In this document: one piece after another, positions 1,011 through 42,250 of the stretch
Numbering within the stretch: position 1 is the first letter of the stretch
Layout: every line of letters begins with the position of its first letter
NCBI GenBank assembly: GCA_017537515.1
Contig: JAFYKO010000082.1
Location: forward strand, 1-45,175
Source: Clostridia bacterium
GTDB taxonomy: Bacteria > Bacillota > Clostridia > Christensenellales > UBA1242
Direction of reading: 5' to 3'
Length of the DNA: 45,175 nucleotides
Notes under the pieces: generated by a model
Seen by the model: only the letters and a program-made list of their open reading frames with translations
Databases searched by the model: none
Told to the model about the DNA's origin: nothing
Program-made: the position numbers and the translations under genes

Positions 1011-4000
1011 AACTTCAACATTTTCTTCATAGTCATCGAGTTGTGTTTTGTAGTCTACGATTACACTTGCGAGTGTTGGAAGAGTTTCGTCCAAGCCGTT
1101 GTTTGTATAGAAATACACGTTTTCAGTTTGGAGGCCGTTGACAAGGTCTGTTTCGTTGTAGTCAAGGCAAAGTGTAAGTTGATTTGAGTAATAGTTCTTA
1201 GCGTCAGAGTCAGTAAGTGTGCCGTTGCTTGAACCTACAACTGCATTGATATTCATATTTTCAGTAATATCACTGCTTGCAGATGTGATTGTACAAACGC
1301 TGTAGTTTGTGTTGAGGTGTGTTGCACTTGAACCCTTGCCGAGGATTCCTCCAAAATAACTTGGTTTGTCGTTTTCCGTCATATTTGCAGATACGTGAAT
1401 ATCTCCATATGACAAGTTTTTGGTTAGGGTTTTTCTAAGTTCGTAAGAACCGCTTGTGTTTGAATTTCCTACAATTCCGCCAACGTACATCGCTTCGCCA
1501 CTCTTAACCAATACGCTTCCGCCAAACACAGTGCCAATTATTTCAACTGCGTTTACGTTTGAAACAGAGGTTCTTGAGCCTACAATTCCGCCAACAAGTC
1601 CGCCGACGTTTACGTTTGAGCCATCAATAGTGATTCGGCCAATATATTTTGCGTCATAATCCATATTCCCAAGAATAAGTGAACTTGAAGTTGTATTGAA
1701 CAAGCCAATCATACCACCGACATTTGCAAAGCCTGAAAGGTTTGTATTTGAGTTTGTGTAAGTTAATGAAGTTCTTGAAATTGCGTTTGTGATTTTAAGG
1801 TCGCCATTAACCACGCCGACGAAACCGCCAATATTTGTTTGCCCACTTGTTGCCTTAACGTTGATTGTTCCAAATGTTTCTATATTGTCAATTCCTTCAA
1901 TGCCTATGGCTGAACCAATAAGCATACCAGCATTGACTTTTTCGGCAGTCAAGGCCATATCCACATCGACAACAACAAACGCATCTGTTTTGACAGTTGC
2001 ACCGTTTGTGAGGCTTGTGCTTGTGTTGGATTTTCCAACAATACCGCCGATATTTGCTTCGCCTATGTTTGCATTTTCGCTTGCAGTTATTGCACCAACG
2101 ATATTAAGTCTTGAATCTGTTGAAACACGTTGGAAAGACACAGTCAAGTTGTTTGCTTCGCCGAAAAGCAAGCCCGCATTGTATCTTTCGATGTTGCCTC
2201 GGTTTTGGACGTTGATAACAAGACCGTTGTTTATGCCATTGTAAGAGCTGTCAGGGGTGTAGGTTTGTTTAGGGTTGGTTGTGTTTGCCACGCCCACGCC
2301 CTTAACTCTTTCACTTGTTGCAGAAATGGTTGTATAAGCAAGCATAACTGCCCCGTCCGCACTTCCGGCAATGCTTCCAACAGAAAGGTTTTTGATAGGG
2401 TGATTGTTTGCATTTATGACAATGTCATTGAGTGTTGAGTTTGGAGAGTTAACAAACCCGCTTGACATATAGGCTGTTACATCTCCGATTTGCATATTTG
2501 CACTGCTGACTGTTTCAATCTTGCCCGCAAGCATACCGACGCTTACATCTGTTTCTGAAAGGTCTTCGCTTGCGAGAGCGGTTACTGAACAGTTTACGAA
2601 TGTAATATTTGAAATATATCCGCCTGAAATTTTGTTTGCAAGAATTCCCACGTTATTGAAACCTTCGCTTAGGCTTGCAGTTATGTGGCAATTTGAGATT
2701 GTGAGATTTTCAAACGAAGATTGAGTTGCTGTGTTTGTTATACTTGAAGAAGTTGGAATTGCTTGGGTGTTTGAAGAGCCAAGGTTTTTGAAAGTCAAGT
2801 TGTAGATTTTTGCATTTTGTATGCTTTCAAAGAATGGCACTGCAAGGCCTTCAAAGCCAAAACCATAATTCATAGTATTGTCAAGACCTTTAAGCACGCC
2901 TGTGAATACAATGCTTGAAAAGTCAATACCGCTTGTAACGAGATAAGAGCCAATATTTATGATTGGTTTAACTGGGGATTCCGCCGCACGTACAATAAAT
3001 GTTGCTGAAGGGAATTGAATTATCTTTTGAAGGTCTTCCGCTTTGTCAATATAGAATAGGTTTGTATCACTAAACATAACAAGTTTTGGAAGAAGTTCGG
3101 TTGTGTATCTCACCCAATAATTTGGGTCCCAGTCTGATTGCAAGAAGTATTGGTCCATAGTAACACCATTATAAGAAGATGTGCTTAGTTCATAAAGCGG
3201 TGTTATTGATTGTTTCGCTTGAATCATATCATAGTATGAGCCAGTGTTGAGTTTTGCAAAAGATTTTTTGAGAGAAACCTCTTCGCCTTTTTTCTTGCCG
3301 TTGAATTTCACAGTCGTAACTGCAAACATATCATCACTACCAACCGCACAAGTTATGCTTGGAAGGTTGTAGCCACTGTATGAAGGATTGAGACTTACAA
3401 CTTCGCCGTTTACTCTTGCAACGTTGTCGATGTATTCTGGTGCGACATAAGATTGAAGAAGGCTGGAACCAGTGAGGGCAAACACGCTGTAAGTGTTTTG
3501 TGGGATTGTGAAGCTTCCATTGTCTTCAACAAGACCCCAGAAGTTGACTGCGTTGACTTTGTTGAAAGCAAGTTTTCTTCCAAAGTCAATATAGCCTGCA
3601 ATACCGCCCGCACCCGCTTTTTCAGCATCTGACGCCTTCACGTCGCCAAACGCATAAACTTCATTGAGGGAGATTTGATATTTGCTTGCATTCAAAAGTC
3701 CAGGGATTTGTCCAACCACGCCACCGGCATAGGTTGCGTATTTGGAAATTACATTGACTTTCGAATAAGCGTGAGTTATCTTACCAGTTGTCATAAGGCC
3801 GACAAGTCCACCAATTGCAAGAGGTTTGTTTTGACTTGTTGACTCAAACAATGTGAGGTTTCCCCTTTCAACTTCGGTTGAAGCTGGGTTTTGATAATAT
3901 AATGGAATATCGCTTTCAATTTGGTTTTGAAGTGCGAGTTCGTGCTGAGCCCTAAGCATATCAAGGTCGCCATAGTTTTCGCCGACAATACCACCCGCAT

Positions 4001-7000
4001 AGAATTTATCCGCAATTATTTTTTGCGTAAGGGTGTTTGAAAGTTCGAGAGTCGCATCCTTCATAAATGTACGAGGCCCCATATATCCTATCACGCCACC
4101 AGCGGTTGAGCCTGATATAACCATTGAACCTTCTGTTTTAAGGAATAAAAGGTGTGGGGTTTTCATTGCCTGGTCGTAGGTGTATGTATTTGAATAGCCA
4201 AGTCCATAAATATCTGCAACGCCGATGATTCCGCCTGCGTATGAAACATAAGCATTTAGGTTTATGATTTCGCTGTTGTTTCTCGAGAATCCTTGACTGC
4301 TTGAAGGAACCTTGTATTCTGCAGTAACTGAAATGTTGGTTGCGGTGATGTTTTTCACTTCACTGTCGCCTTGAACAATACCCGCAAGGGCACCGACAAT
4401 ATTACGCCCAGTTACATTTGAGTTTTGAGTTTGAGAACCCGCCATAAGTGAGATGTTTATGAGTTTTGAGTCGTAAACGCTTCCGGCAATAGCACCTACG
4501 TTTTGTGCTTTTCCGGCTGAAACAAGAATTACGTTTACATTCATATTCATAATAATAGCGTTTTGTTCAAGCTTTGCGAAAAGTCCATAGTTTAAAACTG
4601 ATGTGTCTGCACTTGCAGTAAGGTCAAGCCCGCTTATTGTAAACATATTTCCGTCCACAATACCGCCTTTAAGTGTCTTGTCTGTGGAACCAATCTTTCC
4701 ACTTTGTGTGCTTGGGATATCGTTGAAATTGATGTCGCTGATAAGCCTATAATTTCCATAAACTTCTGTTTGTGAGCGATATTTTTCAACTGCGGTGCTT
4801 TGCAGTGTTGTGAATCCTCCAAAGGCCATATTGTATTCGTCAGCGTTTTTGATGATTATTGGATTGATTTTGCTTCCGTATTCATAGCCTTCTGTGTATG
4901 GGAGGTTGTAAGATTCGATTTCGTTTGTAACCGCATTTCTTGTAACGTTTGCAAGGTATCTATTTGAAACTGCAATTTGATTTGCACTTACAAGGTCAAC
5001 GCCATAAGCAGTTGCATACCAAACACCATTCACAGAGTTTGTGTCATCAGAGAATGCAAAACCATAGAAATATTCGGTGTTGTCTGGTTCTTGAATACGC
5101 TTGATTGAAACGTTTTGGTCGAGGTCTGTATAAGAATCGCCTTCAAGAACAGATGATGCGTAATAATACGAGTTTTTGATTGTTCCTGTGTTTTGTTTTT
5201 GGTTGTTTTCGTCAACGCCGAGGAATGCTGTTTGAGTGTTCTTTGCGTTTTCAATTTTGCTTGCGGTGTAGCATCTCTCAATCTCGCCAGAGTTGATGTA
5301 TGCAAAACCTGCTGTAAACCTTCCACTCTCATAAGGCGAGGTTGTATTTCCAGTTCCGCTTGCAAGCATAATATTTGAATATGAATCGCCAATATCCCCG
5401 CTGTTTGTGTAAACAAATCCTGCACTTATGCTTGAGGTTGATATTCCGCCACCGCTGAGGCTGTATTCGGCATTGCCAACGCCCTTAACATAAGAGGTGT
5501 GTATTTGCCCAGAGTTTTGTCCAACAAATCCTGCTGTGCGTGTTTCGATTCCGCTTGCGGTGTTGTTTGTTATTTGTCCATTTGCAAAATATGAGCTTGC
5601 AATATTGCCACGATTTTCATAAACAAAACCTGCTATATTGCCCTGTCCAGCAATACTGAACACTGATAGAGGGATGTCGTTTGAATTTACTTTGTGAAGC
5701 ATATTCCCGCCAACACGAGAGTTGGAGATGTTTCCTTCATTGTAAACCACGAAGCCAGCGATTGTGCTTGTGATAAGGCTTGAAATATTTCCGCTTGAAT
5801 AAGAAGCGACAATGCCAGAAGTTCCAAGTTCTGGGGTTGTTTTGTCGGCATTGAACGCAACCACTTCGCAGTTGTAGATTATGCCATAGTTTGTGATTGC
5901 AAGGCCGGCGATGTTTACACTTCTTGTAACTGAAGTATTGACGCTGACAAGTCCCGCGTGATAAATATTGACAGTCAAGTTTTTGAGGATTGTATCCGCA
6001 TTGACAGTTTCAAACAATGCAAAGTTTTCAACTTGAGTTGCACTTGAATCATCGTAACTCATAATATTGATTGTGAAGTTATTTCCGTCAAGGCTTTTGA
6101 TTGCGTTGGTGGTTTGTGGGGTGTAGTCCTCAAGATAAAGGTCGGTCATAAGGATATAGTTTTCTGGTGTGTTGCCTTGAATTGCATCATAGAATCCCGC
6201 TTCGTTTTCGATAATAAGTGGCGTATCTTCGTCGCTGTATTTCACTACAGTTATTGTGAAGTTAAAGTTGATTTCGGTTGTGTAGTATCTTGACTCAGCG
6301 TTTGGATATTGCACTTGGAGTTTGAAAACAAGTTTCACTGGGTTTGTGGTTGTTGCTATACCCGTAATTGAAATTTTCCCCGTTGTTTCGTCAACGTTTA
6401 TTGTGAAGTATGAGTTTGAGTTTATTGTTCCATCATTTGACACGATAGATGATGTACTTCCATCGCCATTAACATAATACAAATTGCCAAGGAAACTTTT
6501 TGCCTTATAGTTGTTTGTATTTACAACATAATCCCCGAATGTGCCAAGGTCTGATTTCTTTTCGTAATAGAAGTTTTGAATAAATTGATTGAATGCATCA
6601 TTTCCGCCTTGGTTTTGATTGCCGTTGAAGTCGAATTGAAGATTTGTGTCAAGTCCGACATATGTTGTAAGGTTTGTTTTGTCGAGTTTGTCAGTGAGGA
6701 GGGTTATCTCATCAATCACAAAGTCGACAATTCCAAGAGCCATTGTTGTTGTTTTTGTTTGTTGCTTCCCATTTTCTTTCCACGAAATTACCGCTTCAAT
6801 TGTAACGTAGTTTGCGTTGTGTAAAATCTCCAAAGTTTCGCCAACATAAAGGTCGTAAGTTATGGTTTTAAGGATAGAAGAAGGAAGCTCCTCAATTGTT
6901 TGGTTTGCGTATGTGATATAGTTTCCTACACTGCTGATTGATGTGTCAACTCCCGTAAAGAAAAGGTTTTCAAGGGTTTGGTCTTTTTCAAGGGTTACAA

Positions 7001-10000
7001 CAAGTTTTTGTGTTGTACCTCGAGCCACGTTGTCAACCTCTCGTCCGTCTGGGTTGTAGACTGCAATATCCGCTCCTTCAAGATATTGAACAATAAGATT
7101 GAATGGAATTGTTTTGACTGCAACTTGGTTTTTGATTGCACTTATTTGGATATTGAAAACAACGTCTTGATTGGTTGTGAGAGGGACAAATGTGCTGATG
7201 TAGATTATATTTTGATTGTCAACATTGCTTTCATCAAGAGAGTAGGCGTTGTAGACTATTATTCCATCTTCAAAAATAGCATAATTGTTGTTGTTTCGAG
7301 TGAAGAGCCCGTTTGTTTCTTTCTTCATAAGCCCAAAGGTAAGGTTGCCATTTGCACCGTTTTGAGCCGAATAAGTTACGGTGATATAATCATAATCTGC
7401 GTAGTCTGGGAAGAGATTTATTTTCAAAAGCCCTTCTTCTCCAGGAGAAAGAACGCTTGTTGAAGTGCCTGAGTATGAGTGGTATACAATATTTTTCTTG
7501 CTTGTGCTGTCGTAAACTAGGTTTTTGTCAATAAGTGTATAATGACTTGCGTTTATGCTTGTTATCTCTTGTGAATTTATCACAACTGAGAAGTCTTCAA
7601 ACACAAGGTCTGTGCCGATAGTCTCAGCGTTTCCAAGAGAAGATTTTGCGTAGGCGAGGAGTTTGAGTTCTGTTCCCACATTTCCGTTTGAAGTTGTGTT
7701 TTGGTCGAAGTCATAGTTTTTATACTCACTTTTAACTTCAAGTGAGATTCTGTAATAATGTTTAAAGTAAACTGCTTCGTCTATATTTTGTGTCTTTTGG
7801 GTTAGGTCAATTTTGCTTGTGAAATATTCTGAAGAGATGTATTGGGTTTGTATATCAAAAATGTCTTCAAATTCTTGGCTGTCCACTATTATTGCAAGAC
7901 TTTCATTTGCTGGTGCTATGTCAGAAAGAATGAAGCCTTCAACAATAATTTCACCACTTGGTTGCATTGTAAATTCAGATTGATTTACGTCCACCACGTC
8001 TGCACCCTTATAGAAGTTAAGGAAGAACGAGCCAGAGAAATTGTTTCCGAGAATCTCGTTGATTGCAGTCTTTTCTGCACTGCTTAAAGAATCTGAAACA
8101 ACTGAAAGTGCGTATTCCACCTCAAACAAATCAAGTCCAAAATCTTCATAAAGTTTGATTGTGTTTATTGTTGCGGTGAGGTTTTTGCCACTAATGTAAG
8201 AATCAAGGTCTTCTTGGAATGAAAGTTGATATTTGTTTTCATCAATAAGCACATAATTTTGGTCGAGAATTATTGAATTTTGAAGTAATGCCGTAAGTGA
8301 GAAGTTGTTGTTTGTCTTTATTTTTAAGTTTGAGTTATCCCCAAATTCAACACCATTTTGCATTAGTTTGAAATCGAGAATTGGGTTTATGGTGTAGATT
8401 TCAAAAGTTTGAGATATTGTGCTGTCGTATTTTGAGAAAAGAGTAAGTGTTGCACTGCCTTTGCCGGTTATTTGCACGCCATTTGCAAAGACTGCAATAA
8501 CTTTTGAGTCAGAGCTTATACCCCTAAGACCTACAAGGCTTTCGGTTGTCCCGAGAAGTTCTTCAAAAGTTATGAAGTTTAGGTCTGAAAGAGCATAGAT
8601 TTCTTGCAATGTCAACGAACCACTGGTTGAATAGTGGAAAATCACGCTTTTTCCTTGGATGCTGAAAATATTGTCAGCGTTTGCAAGGGTATTTGAAATG
8701 CTTTCAAGTGGTATTTCTAAGACAATACCTTTGAAATAAGGAAGTCCAAAGTTTTGCTCTGAATCCAACGCCCAAACTTCTGCATAATTTAGGTTGCGGA
8801 TTTCTGTGTATTCATTATTTTGTATATAAGTTCCGCTTGCGTTTTGGTTGTCAGTTCTGAAAACCAAATAAGCATTTTTGATGTATGAAAGGTTGGTTGC
8901 ATTGCCAGTAAAGGAGGTCAAATCATTTGCATATCCAAAGGTTTTATCAATGTTTCCGCCTGTGAGATTTCCAACAAGAACACCGACATTTTGCCCGCTG
9001 ATAACTTCAAGCCCGATATAGTTTTTAGGGTCTGCATTTTCTGACGCATAAGATTGGAAGTAAGAGTTTTTGAGTGTTCCCGCAGTCATTTCGCCGACAA
9101 GACCACCAACAAAAGATGTTCCGCTTATTTTTGCGTAAGTGGTTGTATTTGAAGAGTTGTAGTTGTAAACTTCAACTTTTGAGCCAAAAATATCGCCAGT
9201 ATTCAAGCCAACAAGACCACCAACAACTGCGTTTGAGGTTGACTCGACACCACCAAAGAAGGCAGAGTCTGTTATTTTTCCATAATTTTCAGCAACCAAG
9301 CCACCGACATATCCCACATCTTCGGACGCTTTAAGGATTGTATAATTTCCAGCAGAATTGAAGCTTTCAACAGTTACATTTTCAATGCTTCCCTTATTTT
9401 TGTTTGCAAGAACACTGTTTCCTGCAATTTCTCCAGCAGTGTTTGTGATAATGAGGTCTGCAACCTTGCCCGAAAGGGTGATTTCGCTAAACAAAGTTTT
9501 TGAAGTTTGGATTGTTGCAATTTCATTGCTTCCGATAAGAGCCCCATAAAGCCCACCACTAAGTGCACCATTAAACACAAAGTCGCCTGGATTGATTGCG
9601 GTTACGTCTTGCATAAGCACATAATGTTTGTCAAGTTCAGTGATTTGAGAGAGGTTGTTGACTCTGTAAGCGGTCGCTCGAGAATTTCCGTCAGCGATTG
9701 TGATTGGGATATAAACCGCCACATCGTTTTCGCCAGCAACGTATCCAGTTGGGGTGTATCTATCTGCAGGGGCAATTCGAATAATCCCCGCACCACCGTT
9801 TATTCGACTTCCGTCAACGGTTATGTAGCCCGCTTCTCTGTTTACGGTTATTGCATCGCTTTCTGTGTATGCATCAGGCAAGAACTCGAAGACAAGTTCG
9901 CTGTTGAATGGTTCGATATTGCTTTTGCCTATCTGAACTTCCGCTGTTATTGGACGAGTTAGGTCTTTGCCTGAGTTGTCGAGTTGAAGGTATATACCTT

Positions 10001-12593
10001 GTTGAAGATTGACATCCAAAACTGCGATTTTTTCAACTTGTTGAGCTTTTTTGATTTCAACTTTTAGGGTAAGGGTGTAGGTCTTTCCAAACTCTTGGAC
10101 TTTTGCAACAAAGAAGAATGTCCGAGATGCCACACTGTGATACTTGGTCTCCCCACCTTCTTCGTAAGCCTCGGTTGTACTGTGGGCCTTGATTGCCACT
10201 TCGCCGTCCTCAAACACAAAGTTGTAAACATTTTTTCCGCCAAGGGTGAAATCGAAGCCATAATTTGAAGTCCATTCAATGTTTGAGTATGTTGCATCTT
10301 CATTGATGTAGACAAATGCTCTGCCTTCGGAATAATCCATATCATTTACGCCAAGTGTTTCGGCAGAATAGAGAGTAAGCGAAGTTTTTGAAAGTGCAAA
10401 GCCGTCAACTGGGATATACACTTCAACAAAGAAATATGTTTTGAAACTTACTGATTGTTTGCTTTCGCCATTCAATTCGTATCCGAAAATAGTGGCTTCT
10501 ATGCAAGTTTTTCCGCAGTCAAGGCCATAAATCTCGCTCATACCTGAAAGATAACTTGCTTGGACAATATCAGACTCTGACCCGAATGTAAGGTTTTGCA
10601 TATTATTGAAGATTGCAAGGTGCATAAAGTTTTGGTATTCACTTGCATATGCGTTTTCATAATCTGACAATAAGGTGTCTGAATATCCATATGAGATAGA
10701 TGTTGCACCGGTGATATTTTTGGTAAGGGTGATTGACGTGCCTTGCTTAATGGCCACGCTGAATTGCAAGTTGACTGTATTTGAGAAGTTTGAAATCACT
10801 TGCATATTTCCAACAGCGGTGCTTCCTTGTGGGGTTGGAACTGAAAGTTTTATATCTTTTAGTGTCAATTCTTCAAACACTTCAACCCTGAGGCTTGCAG
10901 AGAATCCATTTGCACTTCTTATCACAAGAATTCCATCAGCACTGACTTTGCCTTTAACTGAAGATATTTGGAAGGTATAATTGTTTGCTTGTATACGAGT
11001 AATACTCTTCGAATCGGCTGTAAACGCATCCCCGCTTGTCATAATCTCAACGCTGTTGCCTTCGTCATTGTCGATAAAGAAGCTAACGCTTTGCGTCATA
11101 ACTTCGTTTGATGTGAGATAGACAACCTTATTTCCGTCTTGGTCGATTTGTGTGCCGTTGATTTCGAGGTTGAGTGTACCTTGAGTTGCGTCAAGGAAGA
11201 GTGTTTTTGAGATTGCTGGGTTGACTTTTGCAAAAATCTTGATAGCACCATTTGATGCTGACGTAGAGTTTGCCTTAACAAAAATTGCTTCACCGCCTAC
11301 AAACTCATATTGGTCGTCTGTGAAGATAATTTCTTCAGCAAACCCGAATGCGTTTTTCTTATAGAATGTATATTCACTTGAACCGGTTTGGAGTTCCAAA
11401 ATAAGAACTCTTTGGTCTTCTGGAATTGCAGAAGGGGTTACTTCAGTATCGATTTGGAGACCTATTTTTGAACCATAATACTCGTGATAAACCACTGCAG
11501 TATTGGATGCTGGAACGAGGCCGTCAGTTAAAAGTTGAATTGATTTAATTGCGTCATGGGTTTCAATCTTGAAAGATTGAGATGTGTAGGTGTAGCCATA
11601 AACATCATAAGACATAACGAAATAAACCTCGTCATTGCCTGAAAGTTGTGTTGAAGTGAGAGTAAAGACAAAACGTGTTTTGTCATTGTTTTGAGATTTT
11701 GTGCTTGAAACAAATTCTACTATTTCACTTTCGGTTTTGAGTGTGCTTTTCACATAAGGAATGATTGATACAGACTCGCTGGTGCTGAGTTCTATTATAA
11801 AATCAACTGACTTTGTGTCTGCAATATTTTTGGTGAGAGAAATAGTTCTTGTAAGGTCGATTTCGCCTGCTGTTTGAGAATAATTTGCACTATACTCAAC
11901 CACAGAAGAAATTGGTTCGAGGACGTCAAGAGTTATAAAAGTCGAGATATTTGGCTTGTCCACGCTTGTTGCTTTGAGGGTTATTTGATTGAAAGCATAA
12001 TCATCGGTGATTGTGAGGACGCCATTAGAAAGGTTTACTCCGCTTGCGAGTTCATCAAGAAGCGAGAATTCGACAACTTGTTGTGTTGTGTTTGCCGGGC
12101 TGTATTGAATAAGTTTGTATGAATTCAAGGCTTTTGGTTCGCCACGAACGACATAGAGATTTTTAGAGTCGGTTGTTGAATACATAGCGGAAACTGGCAC
12201 TTCAACATTGACATAGAAAGACACAGTCTTGTTGCCTTCAAGGGTTGTTACGGTGATAACCGCATTTTGACAAACGCCATTTGCTGTAAGCGTTATTGCA
12301 GTTGCGTTTCCGTCCTCAAAGGCGGTTTCAACGGTTATGTAGGCGTTATTTGAAGAGACGCTAATATCTTTGCTGATTCCCTTATCACCTTTTACATAAG
12401 CGTAAATTGTCTCTGTTGTTGAGACGCCATTTTCGAGATATAAAACAACCGTCGCACCGTCATTTGACAATGAGACAGAAATGTTTTTGTTTGAATCGCA
12501 CGCCGTAAAGCCAAATGCGAGCAAAACAAAAATCAACACAAACGAAAGTTTGCTTAAAATCGACTTAAAACTAATGTGTGAAAATAAACTCAT
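1..12593 (-). CDS. Giant cell-surface lipoprotein, N-terminally complete, C-terminus beyond the left window edge (at least 4197 codons); Ig-like domain arrays interleaved with five GLUG-type beta-helix modules
   Basis: ATG at 12591-12593 (minus) lies 7 nt after a GAGAGG Shine-Dalgarno core. Hand translation in this frame (top base of each codon = 2 mod 3) gives no stop down to nt 3, base-by-base verified at about 11790-12593, 9603-9701, 6003-6059 and 3-68. It is missing from the ORF track only because it has no stop inside the window. Every minus-strand ORF the track lists in 1-12593 is in another frame (end coordinate = 1 mod 3). Protein starts MSLFSHISFKSILSKLSFVLIFVLLAFGFTAC. Confidence 0.85.
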   Translation of the reverse strand, partial: MSLFSHISFKSILSKLSFVLIFVLLAFGFTACDSNKNISVSLSNDGATVVLYLENGVSTTETIYAYVKGDKGISKDISVSSNNAYITVETAFEDGNATAITLTANGVCQNAVITVTTLEGNKTVSFYVNVEVPVSAMYSTTDSKNLYVVRGEPKALNSYKLIQYSPANTTQQVVEFSLLDELASGVNLSNGVLTITDDYAFNQITLKATSVDKPNISTFITLDVLEPISSVVEYSANYSQTAGEIDLTRTISLTKNIADTKSVDFIIELSTSESVSIIPYVKSTLKTESEIVEFVSSTKSQNNDKTRFVFTLTSTQLSGNDEVYFVMSYDVYGYTYTSQSFKIETHDAIKSIQLLTDGLVPASNTAVVYHEYYGSKIGLQIDTEVTPSAIPEDQRVLILELQTGSSEYTFYKKNAFGFAEEIIFTDDQYEFVGGEAIFVKANSTSASNGAIKIFAKVNPAISKTLFLDATQGTLNLEINGTQIDQDGNKVVYLTSNEVMTQSVSFFIDNDEGNSVEIMTSGDAFTADSKSITRIQANNYTFQISSVKGKVSADGILVIRSANGFSASLRVEVFEELTLKDIKLSVPTPQGSTAVGNMQVISNFSNTVNLQFSVAIKQGTSITLTKNITGATSISYGYSDTLLSDYENAYASEYQNFMHLAIFNNMQNLTFGSESDIVQASYLSGMSEIYGLDCGKTCIEATIFGYELNGESKQSVSFKTYFFVEVYIPVDGFALSKTSLTLYSAETLGVNDMDYSEGRAFVYINEDATYSNIEWTSNYGFDFTLGGKNVYNFVFEDGEVAIKAHSTTEAYEEGGETKYHSVASRTFFFVAKVQEFGKTYTLTLKVEIKKAQQVEKIAVLDVNLQQGIYLQLDNSGKDLTRPITAEVQIGKSNIEPFNSELVFEFLPDAYTESDAITVNREAGYITVDGSRINGGAGIIRIAPADRYTPTGYVAGENDVAVYIPITIADGNSRATAYRVNNLSQITELDKHYVLMQDVTAINPGDFVFNGALSGGLYGALIGSNEIATIQTSKTLFSEITLSGKVADLIITNTAGEIAGNSVLANKNKGSIENVTVESFNSAGNYTILKASEDVGYVGGLVAENYGKITDSAFFGGVESTSNAVVGGLVGLNTGDIFGSKVEVYNYNSSNTTTYAKISGTSFVGGLVGEMTAGTLKNSYFQSYASENADPKNYIGLEVISGQNVGVLVGNLTGGNIDKTFGYANDLTSFTGNATNLSYIKNAYLVFRTDNQNASGTYIQNNEYTEIRNLNYAEVWALDSEQNFGLPYFKGIVLEIPLESISNTLANADNIFSIQGKSVIFHYSTSGSLTLQEIYALSDLNFITFEELLGTTESLVGLRGISSDSKVIAVFANGVQITGKGSATLTLFSKYDSTISQTFEIYTINPILDFKLMQNGVEFGDNSNLKIKTNNNFSLTALLQNSIILDQNYVLIDENKYQLSFQEDLDSYISGKNLTATINTIKLYEDFGLDLFEVEYALSVVSDSLSSAEKTAINEILGNNFSGSFFLNFYKGADVVDVNQSEFTMQPSGEIIVEGFILSDIAPANESLAIIVDSQEFEDIFDIQTQYISSEYFTSKIDLTQKTQNIDEAVYFKHYYRISLEVKSEYKNYDFDQNTTSNGNVGTELKLLAYAKSSLGNAETIGTDLVFEDFSVVINSQEITSINASHYTLIDKNLVYDSTSKKNIVYHSYSGTSTSVLSPGEEGLLKINLFPDYADYDYITVTYSAQNGANGNLTFGLMKKETNGLFTRNNNNYAIFEDGIIVYNAYSLDESNVDNQNIIYISTFVPLTTNQDVVFNIQISAIKNQVAVKTIPFNLIVQYLEGADIAVYNPDGREVDNVARGTTQKLVVTLEKDQTLENLFFTGVDTSISSVGNYITYANQTIEELPSSILKTITYDLYVGETLEILHNANYVTIEAVISWKENGKQQTKTTTMALGIVDFVIDEITLLTDKLDKTNLTTYVGLDTNLQFDFNGNQNQGGNDAFNQFIQNFYYEKKSDLGTFGDYVVNTNNYKAKSFLGNLYYVNGDGSTSSIVSNDGTINSNSYFTINVDETTGKISITGIATTTNPVKLVFKLQVQYPNAESRYYTTEINFNFTITVVKYSDEDTPLIIENEAGFYDAIQGNTPENYILMTDLYLEDYTPQTTNAIKSLDGNNFTINIMSYDDSSATQVENFALFETVNADTILKNLTVNIYHAGLVSVNTSVTRSVNIAGLAITNYGIIYNCEVVAFNADKTTPELGTSGIVASYSSGNISSLITSTIAGFVVYNEGNISNSRVGGNMLHKVNSNDIPLSVFSIAGQGNIAGFVYENRGNIASSYFANGQITNNTASGIETRTAGFVGQNSGQIHTSYVKGVGNAEYSLSGGGISTSSISAGFVYTNSGDIGDSYSNIMLASGTGNTTSPYESGRFTAGFAYINSGEIERCYTASKIENAKNTQTAFLGVDENNQKQNTGTIKNSYYYASSVLEGDSYTDLDQNVSIKRIQEPDNTEYFYGFAFSDDTNSVNGVWYATAYGVDLVSANQIAVSNRYLANVTRNAVTNEIESYNLPYTEGYEYGSKINPIIIKNADEYNMAFGGFTTLQSTAVEKYRSQTEVYGNYRLISDINFNDIPSTQSGKIGSTDKTLKGGIVDGNMFTISGLDLTASADTSVLNYGLFAKLEQNAIIMNMNVNVILVSAGKAQNVGAIAGSVYDSKLINISLMAGSQTQNSNVTGRNIVGALAGIVQGDSEVKNITATNISVTAEYKVPSSSQGFSRNNSEIINLNAYVSYAGGIIGVADIYGLGYSNTYTYDQAMKTPHLLFLKTEGSMVISGSTAGGVIGYMGPRTFMKDATLELSNTLTQKIIADKFYAGGIVGENYGDLDMLRAQHELALQNQIESDIPLYYQNPASTEVERGNLTLFESTSQNKPLAIGGLVGLMTTGKITHAYSKVNVISKYATYAGGVVGQIPGLLNASKYQISLNEVYAFGDVKASDAEKAGAGGIAGYIDFGRKLAFNKVNAVNFWGLVEDNGSFTIPQNTYSVFALTGSSLLQSYVAPEYIDNVARVNGEVVSLNPSYSGYNLPSITCAVGSDDMFAVTTVKFNGKKKGEEVSLKKSFAKLNTGSYYDMIQAKQSITPLYELSTSSYNGVTMDQYFLQSDWDPNYWVRYTTELLPKLVMFSDTNLFYIDKAEDLQKIIQFPSATFIVRAAESPVKPIINIGSYLVTSGIDFSSIVFTGVLKGLDNTMNYGFGFEGLAVPFFESIQNAKIYNLTFKNLGSSNTQAIPTSSSITNTATQSSFENLTISNCHITASLSEGFNNVGILANKISGGYISNITFVNCSVTALASEDLSETDVSVGMLAGKIETVSSANMQIGDVTAYMSSGFVNSPNSTLNDIVINANNHPIKNLSVGSIAGSADGAVMLAYTTISATSERVKGVGVANTTNPKQTYTPDSSYNGINNGLVINVQNRGNIERYNAGLLFGEANNLTVSFQRVSTDSRLNIVGAITASENANIGEANIGGIVGKSNTSTSLTNGATVKTDAFVVVDVDMALTAEKVNAGMLIGSAIGIEGIDNIETFGTINVKATSGQTNIGGFVGVVNGDLKITNAISRTSLTYTNSNTNLSGFANVGGMIGLFNTTSSSLILGNMDYDAKYIGRITIDGSNVNVGGLVGGIVGSRTSVSNVNAVEIIGTVFGGSVLVKSGEAMYVGGIVGNSNTSGSYELRKTLTKNLSYGDIHVSANMTENDKPSYFGGILGKGSSATHLNTNYSVCTITSASSDITENMNINAVVGSSNGTLTDSDAKNYYSNQLTLCLDYNETDLVNGLQTENVYFYTNNGLDETLPTLASVIVDYKTQLDDYEENVEVYEGSKLAPIQLTNSNFNQNKKWFESDNNGRKTFFVLTESLSQDVMKNISLKNAHFVGDGFETRIASDALFASVDANSVVAGVKVVANSLSTHTTTVYSKSGTVATGSGTLANINLGTIYSCNATESEGPEKFQVIGIQNSLSDVYTGGLVGVNGGQILDSATDVDVKTTAIAGAFVGLNDGIINNSYTTGSVNALDSYAFGQGSANGKIYSSYTSAITQNNGSVGSGVFGDNSTTDCHYDLYTTGTYDDNGIESDTNTMSTMIEVSEENPKDIFLSNSKASKKFAYDITTNYGFLSFSGEAYKNLPHLKNSNTGDGSVDNAFMIHSVGKLQQLNTM
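1060..3065 (-). repeat. GLUG-type beta-helix module 4
   Basis: Head: NLFYIDKAEDLQKIIQFPSATFIV...AVPFFESIQNAKIYNLTF. Turns: NVGILANKISGGYI, SVGMLAGKIE, SVGSIAGSADG, NIGGIVGKSNTS, NIGGFVGVVNGD, NVGGMIGLFN, NVGGLVGGIVGS, YVGGIVGNSNTSG, YFGGILGKGS. Confidence 0.5.
3085..4868 (-). repeat. GLUG-type beta-helix module 3
   Basis: Head: NPIIIKNADEYNMAF...YGNYRLISDINFNDI...GGIVDGNMFTISGLDL. Turns: NVGAIAGSVYDS, IVGALAGIVQGD, YAGGIIGVADIYG, TAGGVIGYMG, YAGGIVGENYGD, AIGGLVGLMTTGKI, YAGGVVGQIPG, GAGGIAGYIDFG. Cap: SDWDPNYWVRYTTELLPKL. Confidence 0.55.
4985..6235 (-). repeat. GLUG-type beta-helix module 2
   Basis: Head: DTPLIIENEAGFYDAIQGNTPENYILMTDLYL...LDGNNFTINI. Turns: NIAGLAITNYGIIYN, TIAGFVVYNEGNISNS, NIAGFVYENRGNIASS, RTAGFVGQNSGQI, ISAGFVYTNSGDIGDS, FTAGFAYINSGEIERC. 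Cap: NGVWYATAYGVDL. Confidence 0.55.
6236..8730 (-). repeat. Second array of Ig-like beta-sandwich domains in the giant protein
   Basis: Segments such as ISSDSKVIAVFANGVQITGKGSATLTLFS resemble Big_2 domains. No G-L-x-G turns here. Boundaries approximate. Confidence 0.4.
8731..9680 (-). repeat. GLUG-type beta-helix module 1 of the giant protein
   Basis: Head: RVNNLSQITELDKHYVLMQDV. Repeated G-L-x-G turns: ALSGGLYGALIG, VGYVGGLVAENYGKI, AVVGGLVGLNTGDI, SFVGGLVGEMTAG, NVGVLVGNLTGG. Cap: NYAEVWALDSEQNFGLPYF. Confidence 0.55.
9681..12497 (-). repeat. Array of beta-sandwich (bacterial Ig-like, Big_2-type) domains, N-terminal third of the giant protein
   Basis: About 90-100 aa periodic segments rich in T/S/V/N with motifs such as ITLTANGVCQNAVITVTT and ITLKATSVDKPNISTFITLDV, typical of Ig-like group 2 domains. 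Boundaries approximate. Confidence 0.4.
12498..12593 (-). other. Lipoprotein signal peptide of the giant ORF (lipobox F-T-A-C, Cys32)
   Basis: Basic N-region (K10, K15), hydrophobic core FVLIFVLLAFGF, then TAC with Cys codon tgc at 12498-12500 (minus). Confidence 0.6.
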
Positions 12594-12631
12594 TTTTCTT
12601 CCTCTCTGCGAAATTTTCAATTTCTACTAGA

Positions 12632-20191: not shown

Positions 20192-20247
20192 GGGGCGGGC
20201 TCGCCCGCAGTGCGTCTCCGACGCACCGCTCGGGCGACCTCCGCCCC
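20192..20247. repeat. GC-rich three-tier palindromic element A (56 nt, 46/56 G+C)
   Basis: Pairings: GGGGCGG/CCGCCCC, TCGCCCG/CGGGCGA, GTGCGTC-tcc-GACGCAC, giving 21 bp with two small internal loops. Begins 6 nt after the mfd stop. Confidence 0.7.
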
Positions 20248-20253
20248 TCCCCC

Positions 20254-34452: not shown

Positions 34453-34483
34453 AAAACACCCCTCAAAAAAGAGGTATGAAAAC

Positions 34484-34505
34484 GCCAAAAATCTTGGCTT
34501 TTTTT
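34484..34505. terminator. Short bidirectional terminator between convergent gap and HIT genes
   Basis: GCCAA-aaatc-TTGGC followed by T7 on the plus strand, with an A-rich run on the other side. Confidence 0.4.
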
Positions 34506-34905
34506 AATTTATCTTCAAAACCTTTGCAAGTTTTTCAAAATCTGAGTTTTGTTTTTCTTTGTTTGGGAAAACTGAAAACGGGTCGCCCGCACGTCTTGGG
34601 ATAATGTGTATATGAAGGTGGAAAACGCTTTGCTCTGCACAAACTCCATTTGCGTTTAAGATATTCACACCATCAAAAAAACATTTTTCAGTGTAGTGTT
34701 TTGCAACCTTCTGCACTGTTTGAAAAACTGCGTTTATTGTTTCCTCGTCAGCGTCAAAAAGGTTTGTGCAATGTTTTTTTGGTATGACAAGTGTATGCCC
34801 CAAAAAGTCGTCGGCAATATCCAAAAATGCAAGTGTTTTTTCATCCTCATAAATCTTGTGTGCAGGGATTTCCCCGTTTATTATTTTACAAAAAATACAG
34901 TCCAT
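34504..34905 (-). CDS. HIT-family nucleotide hydrolase/transferase
   Basis: Histidine triad HLHIHIIPR. N-terminal CIFCKII. Confidence 0.9.
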   Translation of the reverse strand: MDCIFCKIINGEIPAHKIYEDEKTLAFLDIADDFLGHTLVIPKKHCTNLFDADEETINAVFQTVQKVAKHYTEKCFFDGVNILNANGVCAEQSVFHLHIHIIPRRAGDPFSVFPNKEKQNSDFEKLAKVLKIN

Positions 34906-38241: not shown

Positions 38242-38294
38242 TTAATTTTGGTTTTTTATAAAAAAAGTTTTTTTAGAAGTGTTGAAAGGGAAAA

Positions 38295-38354
38295 GCGGGT
38301 CGGGCGGGCATGCAGGGCGACGCAGTCGCCCGCAGGATGCCCACGCCGACCCGC
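38295..38354 (-). terminator. GC-rich three-tier palindromic element B (60 nt, 48/60 G+C), probable spoIIE terminator
   Basis: Pairings: GCGGGTCGG/CCGACCCGC, GGGCAT/ATGCCC, GGGCGAC-gca-GTCGCCC. On the minus strand the stem is followed directly by TTTTCCCTTTC. Confidence 0.55.
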
Positions 38355-38449
38355 GTCCCTCCTCTAACACTTTTAAAACCCCTTTAAAAACCTCAAAAGC
38401 CTCCTTATCAAAAACAAACCCAGTGCAATAAAAATAAAAGTAACTAAAA

Positions 38450-40852: not shown

Positions 40853-41689
40853 TTATTTGCTTTTTGGATATTGTCTTGTTTCGATTGCGTCATCACGCTT
40901 AAAATGTATTGCACCCACACGACTGACGTTGTAGATATCCAAAGCGTGGAAAAGCGACATTGCAACGCTTGTTACTGCAACAAGCAAAACAACAAGGGTT
41001 GTGATAAATGTCCAAGTTATTTTTGCTCCAAAAACAATGGCAAGGACCAGCGTAAGGACAAAAACAAAGGCGTAGATTCCCGACTTAATTAGGGGTTTTT
41101 TGTAGCTGTTTTTTGGAAACTTGGTTTTCTTTATGTCCATTTCGACGTATCTGACGTTGAGTGCAAGCCATCTGTTAAGTTTGGACATAAGATTTACATT
41201 CGTATTCCTAAGAAGCGTTTGGGCTTGGGAAGAAAAATACTGAATTCCAATATCTCCTTCATAATGTCTGAAATTGAAAAACGTTTTGCAAAGAGAGTTT
41301 CCAATATCTGAAAAGAACTTTTTGATTCCCTTTTTTTCGCCTCGTTTTTTAAGCATAACAACATCATAGCCCTGCATTGCCTCGGTGAGTATTGCATCGA
41401 CTGTGTTTTCAGAAAAGTTTTTTGTGTTGTTTCGGACAAGAAGTAAGCTATCTGCGGGCATATTTTTGACAGAGTATTCAATCATTGTCTCTTCGCTTGT
41501 GCCGACTGAAAATATATCCAGACTTATTGGGAAAGCAAATCTCTTTCTTTTTGAAAACTCTTCAACGATTGGGTGATTCTTTTCGCAAGCAATTTTAAGC
41601 GAAAAATCTTTTGCAATCGTGTTTTTTAGAGTTGTTTCAATTTCTTTTATTGTCGTATTTTTGTCTGTGATTGAAAAAAATATAATCAT
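40853..41689 (-). CDS. Membrane protein of unknown function (cytoplasmic domain faintly GT-A-like, two C-terminal TM helices)
   Basis: 278 aa. SD is GAAGAGG. C-terminal TMs are IYAFVFVLTLVLAIVFGA and FITTLVVLLVAVTSVAMSLF. No DxD motif seen. Confidence 0.6.
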   Translation of the reverse strand: MIIFFSITDKNTTIKEIETTLKNTIAKDFSLKIACEKNHPIVEEFSKRKRFAFPISLDIFSVGTSEETMIEYSVKNMPADSLLLVRNNTKNFSENTVDAILTEAMQGYDVVMLKKRGEKKGIKKFFSDIGNSLCKTFFNFRHYEGDIGIQYFSSQAQTLLRNTNVNLMSKLNRWLALNVRYVEMDIKKTKFPKNSYKKPLIKSGIYAFVFVLTLVLAIVFGAKITWTFITTLVVLLVAVTSVAMSLFHALDIYNVSRVGAIHFKRDDAIETRQYPKSK

Positions 41690-41721
41690 TTCTTAAACCT
41701 CTTCAATTTTCTCCTACGGGG

Positions 41722-41810
41722 GGGGGCGGGCGGTAAAGTGCGAAAGCACTTTACAGCACGTCGCCTTGCGACGTGCCGCTGCGTTTTTCAAAACGCATTC
41801 GCCCGCCCCC
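41722..41810. other. GC-rich four-way-junction element C (89 nt): 10-bp G/C closing stem enclosing three hairpins
   Basis: Closing stem: GGGGGCGGGC (41722-41731) pairs with GCCCGCCCCC (41801-41810). Inside: TAAAGTGC-gaaa-GCACTTTA, CACGTCGC-ctt-GCGACGTG, GCGTTT-ttca-AAACGC. Preceded by a G9 run (41718-41726) and followed by T6 on the plus strand. Confidence 0.7.
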
Positions 41811-41827
41811 GTTTTTTCGTAATGCAG

Positions 41828-42250
41828 TTATTCGCTGAACTTCTTAATACGATTCAAGTGCCTGCCTTTTTCGAAATCGGTTGTAAGAAAAACTTTTATC
41901 ATTCCAACCGCCTTACGTTTCGAAAGCTTGCCCGAAAGCACAAGCACATTTGCGTCGTTGTGTCGTCTTGCGAGGCTTGCTTGTTGCTTGTCTTTGCAGA
42001 GGCCCGCACGAATTTTTGGGTTTCGGTTTGCAACCATACTCATCCCAATACCCGTTCCGCATATAAAAATGCCAACATTTTGAGGGTTTTCGAGGACTCT
42101 TGCACATCCGCTAACTGCATAGTCCGGATAGTCCACTCTATCTTTTGAGTAGCACCCAACATCGATTGTTGTAATGTTTTCTGCGTTGAAAAACTCCTTT
42201 ATTTTTTCTTTAAGTTCATAACCATTGTGGTCGCACGCTAAAATTATCAT
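41828..42250 (-). CDS. rpiB: Ribose-5-phosphate isomerase B
   Basis: MIILACDHNGYELK ... ICGTGIGMSMVANR, RpiB/LacAB signature. Confidence 0.9.
   Translation of the reverse strand: MIILACDHNGYELKEKIKEFFNAENITTIDVGCYSKDRVDYPDYAVSGCARVLENPQNVGIFICGTGIGMSMVANRNPKIRAGLCKDKQQASLARRHNDANVLVLSGKLSKRKAVGMIKVFLTTDFEKGRHLNRIKKFSE

What the first reader, a model, noticed from the sequence alone, without database searches (positions are those of the whole stretch)
41722..41810. 89-nt four-way-junction element (10-bp G/C closing stem plus three hairpins) in the rpiB - membrane-protein spacer, flanked by G9 and T6
The closing stem pairs GGGGGCGGGC with GCCCGCCCCC. It encloses three perfect hairpins: an 8-bp stem with GAAA tetraloop, an 8-bp stem with CTT loop, and a 6-bp stem with TTCA loop. 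These are joined by 2-5-nt linkers. The topology is cloverleaf-like but the dimensions are not tRNA. It fills almost the whole 138-nt spacer, 17 nt after the rpiB stop and 32 nt before the next ATG, so it is co-transcribed within an operon on the minus strand. On the plus strand it is followed by GTTTTTT. A perfect TATAAT (41681-41686) lies about 35 nt upstream. It could therefore instead be the 3' part of an approx 125-nt antisense RNA covering the RBS and start of gene 40853-41689. The preceding G9 homopolymer (41718-41726) can slip and change the closing-stem register. The arms resemble those of elements A and B (CGTCGC/GCGACG, GGGCGG). I know of no described RNA family or repeat with this shape.
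Basis: seen in the sequence. Interest (0 to 1): 0.7.

Follow-up and report, generated by a model that had tools for sequence, protein, structure and literature searches.

The report
GC-rich four-way-junction intergenic repeat copy
The 89-nt cloverleaf-shaped element between rpiB and the next gene is real, but it is one copy of a small, species-specific family of GC-rich folded repeats scattered through the spacers of an uncultured ruminant-gut Clostridia genome, and not a dedicated regulator of this operon.

Summary
The structure exists as described. It has an 11-bp G/C closing stem and three perfect hairpins of 9, 9 and 7-8 bp. It folds at about -65 to -68 kcal/mol on either strand (z about -7), roughly 8 SD beyond the window background. 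There is no Rfam or tRNA match.

It is not a locus-specific RNA. Orthologous rpiB-to-gene spacers in relatives are only 10-25 nt and lack it. Its first 33 nt (5' closing arm plus hairpin 1) recur on other contigs of the same gut metagenomes with unrelated flanks, at about 2-7x depth. A full second copy (D) lies about 5 kb away in a 98.6%-identical strain. D has the same closing stem and hairpin 1, but arms 2 and 3 have a different sequence and still form hairpins. D is absent from another strain.

Two further GC-rich hairpin elements in the window (A, B) share the octamer GGGCGGGC. The G tract is 8 or 9 in different strains.

Best reading: a new family of small interspersed structured repeats, comparable to BOX, BIME or MITE elements. 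This copy is tolerated in the orientation that keeps its T-run off the mRNA. Any RNA effects are inferred. The antisense-sRNA idea is unsupported. Interest is modest.

The parts
41722..41732 (+). 5' arm of the closing stem, GGGGGCGGGCG. Identical in paralogue D.
41733..41754 (+). Hairpin 1, GTAAAGTGC-GAAA-GCACTTTAC (9 bp). Sequence-conserved in all other copies; the loop is GAAC in D.
41723..41755 (+). The 33-nt module that is multi-copy in the same metagenomes. Depth is 1.9-7.4x that of the flanks, and it lies on contigs with at least 5 different 5' flanks.
41756..41776 (+). Hairpin 2, GCACGTCGC-CTT-GCGACGTGC (9 bp). Unique to this copy; D-type copies carry ATGCGTCC-NNN-GGACGCAT here.
41780..41797 (+). 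Hairpin 3, TGCGTTTT-TC-AAAACGCA (7-8 bp). Unique to this copy; D carries CACGAGGCG-TC-GCCTCGTG.
41800..41810 (+). 3' arm of the closing stem, CGCCCGCCCCC. Identical in D.
41718..41726 (+). G9 homopolymer (C9 in the mRNA). It is 8 or 9 long in different strains and samples. The first four G are unpaired.
41811..41817 (+). GTTTTTT directly after the closing stem. This gives a terminator-like arrangement only on the + strand, which is antisense to the genes.
41828..42250 (-). rpiB (LacAB_rpiB), the upstream gene of the spacer.
40853..41689 (-). 278-aa protein without a Pfam match and with a hydrophobic C-terminus, the downstream gene. In relatives it starts 10-25 nt after rpiB.
38296..38355 (-). 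Element B, a GC-rich long hairpin after spoIIE. On the mRNA strand it is followed by UUUUCCCUUU, which is terminator-like. It shares GGGCGGGC and has a roughly 85% paralogue elsewhere.
20193..20250 (-). Element A, a GC-rich long hairpin that starts at the stop codon of mfd (TRCF). It shares GGGCGGGC and is single copy.

Best explanation
Element C is one copy of a small, lineage-specific family of GC-rich structured interspersed repeats. The host is an uncultured, spore-forming Clostridia bacterium from ruminant guts.

The family unit is a four-way junction. Its terminal inverted arms (GGGGCGGGCG / CGCCCGCCCC) and first hairpin are conserved in sequence. The other two arms can be entirely different sequences as long as they are hairpins.

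The element entered the rpiB-downstream spacer after this species split from its nearest sampled relatives. How it got there, by transposition in trans or by recombination, is inferred and unknown.

At this locus it is carried passively in the polycistronic mRNA as a very stable junction without a following U-run, so transcription reads through to the 278-aa gene. The opposite orientation would place stem plus U6 in the mRNA and would be polar.

Likely side effects, all inferred: a barrier to 3'-5' exonucleases that stabilises the upstream whiA-rpiB segment, some uncoupling of the downstream gene, and termination of any antisense transcription on the + strand.
For: Shown:
1. The structure is real and exceptional.
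2. It is absent from orthologous spacers. L011 has a 25-nt spacer; L013, L014 and L024-L026 have 10-nt spacers. No comparable structure occurs in 14.8 kb of L011.
3. It is present in at least 8 independent assemblies of the same species.
4. Positions 41722/3-41755 lie on additional contigs with unrelated flanks. Depth ratios are 7.4, 5.3, 2.8 and 1.9 in four samples. All those copies continue into a different hairpin 2 and hairpin 3.
5. Full paralogue D at L001:5546-5640 folds into the same four-way junction (the covariance model scores it 54 bits, E 1.6e-8). Twenty closing-stem and hairpin-1 pairs are identical. Eleven hairpin-2 and hairpin-3 pairs are changed on both sides, and only 2 are broken (pooled counts).
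6. D, together with its surroundings, is missing in strain L006: the spacer is 61 nt against 415 nt.
7. A and B share GGGCGGGC, and B also has a paralogue.
8. No Rfam, tRNA, phage, plasmid or GTDB match.

Inferred:
- Orientation logic. The U-run is only on the antisense strand. All four elements have the same orientation relative to the upstream gene.
- The mRNA effects, by analogy with BIME, BOX and ERIC elements (PMC3049150).
Against: - Copy number is low, about 3-7 per genome for this subfamily, unlike classic REP or BOX families.
- No target-site duplication is visible at C, and no empty-site allele of C was found.
- No transposase or recombinase lies in the 45-kb window or the 7 kb beyond it.
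- The only presence/absence polymorphism (D) involves a larger, complex indel rather than a clean excision.
- The perfect hairpins in arms 2 and 3, with unrelated sequences in C and D, would also fit a selected functional RNA family.
- No transcript data exist: only runs of unknown type were found.
- Other copies are known only from contig pieces and 30-nt loose ends, not full sequences.
Confidence: 0.66

Rival explanations
1. A family of functional structured RNAs, or protein-binding RNA or ssDNA modules. The conserved closing stem plus hairpin 1 would be a recognition site, and arms 2 and 3 would be kept as hairpins by selection. C would then be a working paralogue rather than selfish DNA.
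For: - Architecture is conserved between C and D, with 11 double-sided pair changes and perfect stems.
- Strain differences between the window and L001 fall only in loops, linkers and flanks. The two stem changes in L005 are G.U-compatible on the + strand.
- In D and A the gene-sense strand folds about 10 kcal/mol better through G.U pairs.
Against: - The element is restricted to one species, and relatives at 65% identity or less lack anything like it.
- It evolves at about the neutral rate of the flanks, 1.5-2.5%.
- Strand preference is inconsistent: C is slightly better on the + strand.
- No shared promoter or terminator is seen among copies.
- D is dispensable in strain L006.
Confidence: 0.15
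2. A locus-specific cis-regulatory element of the rpiB / 278-aa-gene operon, such as an attenuator, a processing site or a stabiliser, acquired and kept for that purpose.
For: - It fills an intercistronic spacer inside a co-oriented gene string. The downstream gene keeps its own GAGG ribosome-binding site.
- It is conserved in all sampled strains of the species.
- Such effects are documented for BIME, ERIC and BOX insertions (PMC3049150).
Against: - The same genes are 10-25 nt apart in all sampled relatives, so no such regulation is ancestral.
- The same module occurs at unrelated loci.
- No U-tract follows it on the mRNA strand, so there is no intrinsic attenuation signal.
- It matches no riboswitch or leader family.
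Confidence: 0.12
3. An independent + strand small RNA, antisense to the start of the 278-aa gene. It would start downstream of the TATAAT at 41681-41686 and end at the closing stem plus U6.
For: - A perfect TATAAT lies 35 nt upstream, and the stem plus GTTTTTT is terminator-like on the + strand.
- The GAAA tetraloop of hairpin 1 reads as GNRA on the + strand.
Against: - No -35 lies at 16-18 nt, and the promoter scan reports no + strand site there.
- The TATAAT is made by codons 1-4 of the gene.
- Paralogue D has neither the T-run nor this upstream sequence, and its loop is GAAC.
- No RNA data exist.
Confidence: 0.05
4. An assembly or sequencing artefact, either a chimeric palindrome or an adapter-like hairpin.
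For: - Short-read contigs often break at the element (L003, L004, L008, L010, L023).
- One contig (L010) diverges inside it.
Against: The same sequence, with small natural variants, appears in independent assemblies from several studies and hosts, including contigs of 8-45 kb that span it.
Confidence: 0.01

Closest known systems
BOX elements of Streptococcus pneumoniae (boxA-boxB(n)-boxC modular repeats)
   Same: - Small interspersed intergenic repeats in a low-GC Firmicute.
- Terminal modules pair with each other to close the structure, and internal modules form their own hairpins and vary between copies.
- Tightly folded when co-transcribed and able to alter expression of neighbouring genes (PMC3049150, read).
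   Different: - No sequence relation was tested or expected.
- BOX has over 100 copies per genome, against about 3-7 for this subfamily.
- BOX modules are conserved sequences, whereas here arms 2 and 3 are unrelated between C and D.
- This element is strongly GC-rich and is a compact 89-nt four-way junction.
REP / BIME / REPIN elements (with RAYT transposases)
   Same: - GC-rich extragenic palindromes located after genes and between genes of operons.
- Mosaic combinations of hairpin units.
- Known to act as mRNA stabilisers or attenuators (PMC2817692, PMC3049150; otherwise my own knowledge).
   Different: - REPs are single 20-40-nt imperfect palindromes, present in hundreds of copies, with a conserved GTAG-type head and an associated RAYT gene.
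- None of this is shown here, and copy number is low.
- The CTAC next to the G tract is in the wrong position and could be chance.
Bacterial MITEs (Correia, RUP, ERIC, Nezha)
   Same: - Non-coding, with perfect 10-11-bp terminal inverted repeats.
- Several copies with different flanks, restricted to one lineage, with presence/absence differences between strains.
   Different: - MITEs are usually AT-rich long hairpins with a target-site duplication and a cognate IS element.
- No duplication is visible at C, and a possible CTC at D is unproven.
- No IS element is known.
GC clusters, double-hairpin elements and repetitive hairpin-forming elements of fungal and sponge mitochondrial genomes
   Same: Short GC-rich hairpin or multi-hairpin units that proliferate in the spacers of an AT-rich genome and differ between close relatives (PMC2800124 and the hits; otherwise my own knowledge).
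   Different: - They occur in organelle genomes, not bacterial ones.
- There is no sequence relation.
- Their mechanism of spread is equally unknown, so this is an analogy only.
Intrinsic (Rho-independent) terminators, and SPRITE
   Same: A G/C stem is followed directly by T6 on the + strand. Sibling element B has stem plus UUUUCCCUUU on the mRNA strand after spoIIE.
   Different: - On the transcribed (-) strand, C is followed by CCCCGUAGGAG, not a U-run.
- It is a branched junction rather than a simple hairpin.

Membership tests
Any Rfam 15 RNA family (riboswitches, ribozymes including the twister-sister and hairpin four-way junctions, sRNAs, leaders) | Covariance-model score at or above the family's gathering threshold | tested here: not met
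   One search gave 0 hits in the whole window. In one search the best hit was 18.5 bits (mir-483, gathering score 60), and all hits had E >= 0.13.
tRNA / tmRNA / tRNA-like | Cloverleaf with tRNA dimensions and conserved D and T loops | tested here: not met
   ARAGORN found none in the window. The Rfam tRNA model did not hit at E <= 10. The stems are 11, 9, 9 and 7 bp.
Small interspersed repeat (generic) | Several copies in one genome at unrelated loci | tested here: met
   The 33-nt module lies on extra contigs with at least 5 different 5' flanks, at depth ratios of 1.9-7.4. Full copy D lies at L001:5546-5640.
Small interspersed repeat (generic) | Lineage-restricted, and absent from orthologous sites of relatives | tested here: met
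   Spacers are 10-25 nt in L011, L013, L014 and L024-L026. No hits in GTDB genomes, JGI metagenomes (one unrelated hit), viral contigs, phages or plasmids.
MITE | Terminal inverted repeats | tested here: met
   GGGG(G)CGGGCG and CGCCCGCCCC(C) are perfect, 10-11 bp, and identical in C and D.
MITE | Target-site duplication flanking the element | tested here: inconclusive
   None is seen at C, whose flanks are CTAC(GGGG) and GTTTTTT. D is flanked by ..CCTC and CTCC.., a possible CTC duplication. The 3' flanks of the other copies could not be obtained.
MITE | Cognate transposase or IS element with matching ends | not testable with these tools
   No transposase lies in the window or L001. The rest of the genome is not available.
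REP / RAYT system | Short imperfect palindrome with a conserved tetranucleotide head, in over 100 copies, with REPs flanking a RAYT gene | tested here: not met
   Copy number is about 3-7. The unit is a branched 89-nt junction. No RAYT gene is in view, and the whole genome could not be tested.
BOX-like modular repeat | Conserved terminal modules that pair, with variable internal hairpin modules | tested here: met
   Comparison of C with D: the closing stem and hairpin 1 are identical, and hairpins 2 and 3 are replaced. This shows the same architecture only. Sequence membership in BOX was not tested and is not claimed.
Intrinsic terminator of the rpiB transcript | Stable stem followed by a U-rich tract on the transcribed strand | tested here: not met
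   The - strand reads ...CGCCCGCCCCCCCCCGUAGGAG. The U6 is on the + strand only.
Integron attC site | Single bulged hairpin with RYYYAAC and GTTRRRY ends, next to an integrase or cassette array | tested here: not met
   The ends do not fit (AAAAAAC / GTTTTTT), the structure is branched, and no integrase is nearby.

The most novel reading that the evidence does not exclude
The four-way junction is a structure-specific recognition module, as RNA or as extruded or single-stranded DNA, for a dedicated protein such as a structure-guided transposase or recombinase, or an RNA-binding protein. The invariant closing stem plus hairpin 1 would be the binding site, and arms 2 and 3 would be free to vary as long as they remain hairpins. 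That would make it a new class of structured mobile element or ncRNA. It may be linked to the general spread of GC-rich mini-hairpins in this lineage's spacers.
Probability: 0.15. Interest if true: 0.65.

Novelty: new member of a known kind. Interest (0 to 1): 0.33.

Why it matters
This is a worked example of a striking, highly significant 'novel RNA structure' in an AT-rich genome that turns out to be a copy of a young, species-specific repeat. Screens that look for ncRNAs in GC-rich intergenic regions need to recognise such cases.

The family itself has some interest, for three reasons:
- Its topology is conserved while two of its arms are swapped for unrelated hairpins.
- It sits in a deep, unrepresented Clostridia lineage. 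The best GTDB WhiA match is about 30% identical.
- Together with elements A and B and the hairpin clusters next to the window, it shows GC-rich palindromes spreading in bacterial spacers much as GC clusters do in fungal mitochondria.

If a mobilising or binding protein exists, the system could show how structure rather than sequence is recognised.

Tried and rejected
- Rfam at gathering threshold and at E <= 10 gave nothing.
- ARAGORN found nothing.
- blastn of the element against phage and plasmid collections gave nothing meaningful.
- The exact hairpin-1 22-mer had 0 hits in 596 Gb of GTDB genomes.
- The same 22-mer had 1 hit in JGI metagenomes (L015). There it sits inside a repeat derived from a tRNA 3' end in an unrelated organism. 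I judged this a possible chance match, with about 0.06-0.3 expected for a 9-bp, 4-nt-loop hairpin, and did not use it as evidence.
- The 18-mer had no hit in viral contigs.
- A WhiA-based scan of GTDB returned only relatives about 30% identical, with no element.
- MAFFT could not align C with D. I instead built a covariance model from the C variants and let it align D.
- The pooled pair counts mix both strands and L015, so they overstate covariation. I rely on the direct comparison of C with D.
- Searches for RNA runs found only runs of unknown type, so there is no transcript evidence.
- The T-box idea for the hairpin cluster upstream of the aaRS gene in L001 got no Rfam support.
- attC, REP/RAYT, tRNA-like, ribozyme, tracrRNA/omega-RNA and retron readings were considered and dropped. 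Their defining features or partner genes are missing.

Full report
**The observation**

The sequence at 41718-41817 reads G9, then CGGGCG, then three perfect hairpins, then CGCCCGCCCCC and GTTTTTT.

- The closing stem can be drawn with 11 pairs (41722-41732 with 41800-41810).
- Linkers are 0-3 nt.
- The genes on both sides are on the minus strand: rpiB at 41828-42250 and a 278-aa protein without a Pfam match at 40853-41689.
- The spacer is 138 nt, with 17 nt on the rpiB side of the element and 32 nt on the other side.

As RNA, the minimum-energy fold is the four-way junction on either strand. The + strand gives -68.1 kcal/mol (z -7.6) and the - strand gives -65.0 (z -6.7). DNA parameters give the same fold.

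A sliding 110-nt fold of the whole 45-kb window has mean -21.3 and sd 5.6 kcal/mol. Only three places fall below -60: this element (C), element A at about 20193-20250, and element B at about 38296-38355. The next best value is -37.7. These three places also hold the only perfect GC-rich hairpins in the window with stems of at least 7 bp.

**What it is not**

- No Rfam family reaches threshold anywhere in the window. With permissive settings the best score over the element is 18.5 bits, for an animal microRNA model.
- ARAGORN finds no tRNA or tmRNA.
- Phage and plasmid collections hold nothing similar.

**Context and host**

- The gene string is murB, a PHP-domain gene, whiA, rpiB, the 278-aa gene, spoIIE, a CCA/poly(A) polymerase-family gene, rmuC and so on. 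Germination genes (gerA) lie nearby.
- The window is 38% GC.
- The same sequence occurs in sheep, goat, bovine and other gut metagenomes.
- The 278-aa protein has only five homologue clusters among 5.8 billion proteins, none from NCBI genomes.
- The best WhiA matches among 185,579 GTDB species are about 30% identical, from Lachnospiraceae, Acutalibacteraceae and Clostridia MAGs.
- The host is therefore an uncultured, spore-forming Clostridia lineage that has no reference genome.

**The element is a recent insertion at this locus**

Eight independent assemblies of the same species, 97.5-99.8% identical to the window, carry the element with small differences.

| Strain | Differences from the window |
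|---|---|
| L001-L004 | A C tract of 8 instead of 9, one extra T in the hairpin-3 loop, one linker change and one flank change. None of these lies in a stem. |
| L005 | Two stem changes (41782 and 41804, both C to T). Both leave G.U on the + strand. |

Every sampled relative that still has rpiB directly followed by the orthologous gene has almost no spacer:

| Locus | Identity of the downstream protein | Spacer |
|---|---|---|
| L011 | 65% (WhiA 82%, RpiB 91%) | 25 nt |
| L013, L014, L024-L026 | about 45% | 10 nt |

L011 shows no structure below -36 kcal/mol in 14.8 kb. A 70% relative (L012) has different GC hairpins upstream of the gene, but its contig is cut there.

**The element is one copy of a repeat family**

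I laid the contigs of four gut metagenomes on the region. Positions 41722/3 to 41755, which are the 5' closing arm plus hairpin 1, also lie on other contigs whose flanks are unrelated to this locus.

- Summed depth there is 7.4, 5.3, 2.8 and 1.9 times that of the flanks.
- All these other copies continue into ATGCGTCC-(GCA/GAA/AAA)-GGACGCAT and then CACGAGGCG. That is a different hairpin 2 and hairpin 3.
- They have at least five different upstream flanks. Most of these end in ATCCAAMCTC.

One such copy is fully readable. This is copy D at L001:5546-5640, about 5 kb beyond the right end of the window, in a strain 98.55% identical to it. It lies between the convergent gerA and a 225-aa gene.

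D reads GGGGCGGGCG, GTAAAGTGC-GAAC-GCACTTTAC, A, ATGCGACC-AAA-GGACGCAT, CA, CACGAGGCG-TC-GCCTCGTG, T, CGCCCGCCCC.

- It folds into the same four-way junction on both strands (-59.9 and -70.8 kcal/mol, z -8.4 and -7.4).
- A covariance model built only from the C variants finds it at 54 bits, E 1.6e-8.

In the model's alignment:

- The closing stem and hairpin 1 are identical between C and D, 20 pairs in all.
- In hairpins 2 and 3, 11 pairs differ on both sides yet still pair, 3 are unchanged and 2 are broken.
- The pooled tool count (96% of cells paired, 26 pairs with double-sided changes, 0 of 500 shuffles as high) points the same way. It is inflated, because it includes reverse-strand matches and an unrelated hit.

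Whether arms 2 and 3 diverged by compensatory change or were replaced as whole modules cannot be decided from two sequence types.

D is missing in strain L006, where the gerA-downstream spacer is 61 nt instead of 415 nt. The difference is a complex indel. In L001, D is nested inside a composite palindrome of about 340 nt, bounded by inverted arrays of the heptad GAGTTAG.

**Relation to A and B**

- The octamer GGGCGGGC occurs four times in the window, only in A, B and C, against 0.27 expected.
- A follows the stop codon of mfd, and B follows spoIIE.
- Both fold as long three-helix hairpins, not junctions.
- Their central hairpins resemble hairpin 2 of C: GTGCGTC-TCC-GACGCAC and GGGCGAC-GCA-GTCGCCC.
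- B has a paralogue about 85% identical elsewhere in the same metagenomes. A is single copy.
- B is followed by UUUUCCCUUU on the mRNA strand, so it looks like the spoIIE terminator.
- The 7 kb of L001 beyond the window holds further clusters of short GC-rich hairpins.
- This lineage therefore carries several low-copy families of GC-rich palindromic elements in otherwise AT-rich spacers.

**How it most likely works**

What is shown: C is a lineage-specific insertion of a multi-copy structured repeat.

The rest is inferred.

- The perfect 10-11-bp terminal inverted arms, the copies at unrelated sites and the strain polymorphism fit a non-autonomous mobile element, or one spread by recombination. 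No target duplication, empty C site or transposase was found.
- On the transcribed (-) strand the junction is followed by CCCCGUAGGAG, not a U-run. RNA polymerase should therefore read through, and the downstream gene keeps its own GAGG ribosome-binding site.
- The T6 lies on the antisense strand. An insertion in the other orientation would have put stem plus U6 between two formerly coupled genes. The observed orientation is the one selection would tolerate.
- All four elements (A, B, C, D) have the same orientation relative to the upstream gene. With only four cases this is weak.
- By analogy with BIME, ERIC, Correia and BOX elements (PMC3049150), a -65 kcal/mol junction in the mRNA could block 3'-5' exonucleases and change the relative expression of the flanking genes. 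On the + strand it would stop antisense transcription.

- The antisense-sRNA idea rests on the TATAAT at 41681-41686. This is simply the reverse complement of codons 1-4 of the 278-aa gene. It has no usable -35, and the promoter scan does not report it. D shares neither the upstream sequence nor the T-run.
- The G tract does vary between 8 and 9. Only five of its G residues pair, and the CGGGCG core fixes the register, so slippage should not re-register the stem.

**Comparison with known systems, and novelty**

- In architecture the closest analogue is the pneumococcal BOX element, which has pairing terminal modules and variable internal hairpin modules. In genomic behaviour it resembles REP/BIME elements and MITEs. 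In its GC-rich-in-AT-rich character it resembles mitochondrial GC clusters and hairpin elements.
- It fails the defining features of REP/RAYT systems (copy number, unit shape), of intrinsic terminators on the mRNA strand, of attC sites, of tRNA-like elements and of every Rfam family.
- I therefore file it as a new, undescribed family of a known general kind, small interspersed structured repeats. It is not a new regulatory RNA class.
- About 15% probability remains that the conserved junction is a true recognition structure for a dedicated protein or a functional RNA family, which would be more interesting.

**Limits**

- The other copies are known only from contig pieces and 30-nt loose ends.
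- No reference genome and no RNA data exist for this organism.

Noticed in passing
window 3-12623 (- strand): A stop-free reading frame of at least 4207 codons that runs off the start of the window. This suggests a giant protein gene. It was not characterised.
   Followed up: no
L001:5473-5506, 5737-5813 and 3672-3704 (same species, just beyond the right end of the window): Arrays of the heptad GAGTTAG and its complement, rich in GGAG and CUCC. Two inverted arrays bracket copy D in a composite palindrome of about 340 nt (-200.6 kcal/mol, z -14). Strain L006 lacks this composite.
   Followed up: partly
L001:750-980: Seven consecutive short GC-rich hairpins lie between gerAC and a class-I aminoacyl-tRNA synthetase gene (-51.5 kcal/mol). 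A T-box leader would be expected there, but no Rfam family matches.
   Followed up: partly
L001:3420-3530 and 3780-3895: More GC-rich hairpin clusters lie in the divergent spacer between the spore permease gene and gerA. They include CCGTCGC-AAT-GCGACGG, which resembles hairpin 2 of element C, and TTGCGAC-AAC-GTCGCAA followed by T10.
   Followed up: no
L010:614-797 (corresponds to window 41779/41780): A 797-nt contig with an identical rpiB follows element C through the rpiB-side closing arm and hairpin 3. It then diverges at the linker between hairpins 3 and 2 into an unrelated gene start (MFGYVKIYKPELKVKDYE). This is either a rearrangement at the element or a chimeric assembly.
   Followed up: partly
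L015:695-809 (unrelated JGI metagenome contig): The identical 22-nt hairpin 1 sequence appears as a 25-nt insertion in a second copy of a repeat derived from a tRNA 3' end, closed by a 9-bp stem. The element-C model scores it 25.9 bits. It may be a chance match, with about 0.06-0.3 expected.
   Followed up: partly
window 38288-38333 (element B): A second contig in two metagenomes carries a copy of B's 5' half about 85% identical to it. The flanks are different (GTTTTTTTATGGAGG before it, TGTGGTCCCACGCCGTCCCGCCGTTTTGGA after it), so B also belongs to a small repeat family.
   Followed up: partly
window 34482-34541 versus L001:17767-19188: Strain L001 carries an extra segment of about 1.4 kb, with a histidine-phosphatase-family gene, that the window lacks.
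   Followed up: no
L012:1-104 (relative at 70% identity): The spacer upstream of the orthologous gene holds different GC hairpins (GCGGGC-TT-GCCCGC and GCGC-GAA-GCGC) in an AT-rich context. The contig ends there, so this spacer may be a recurrent landing site.
   Followed up: partly
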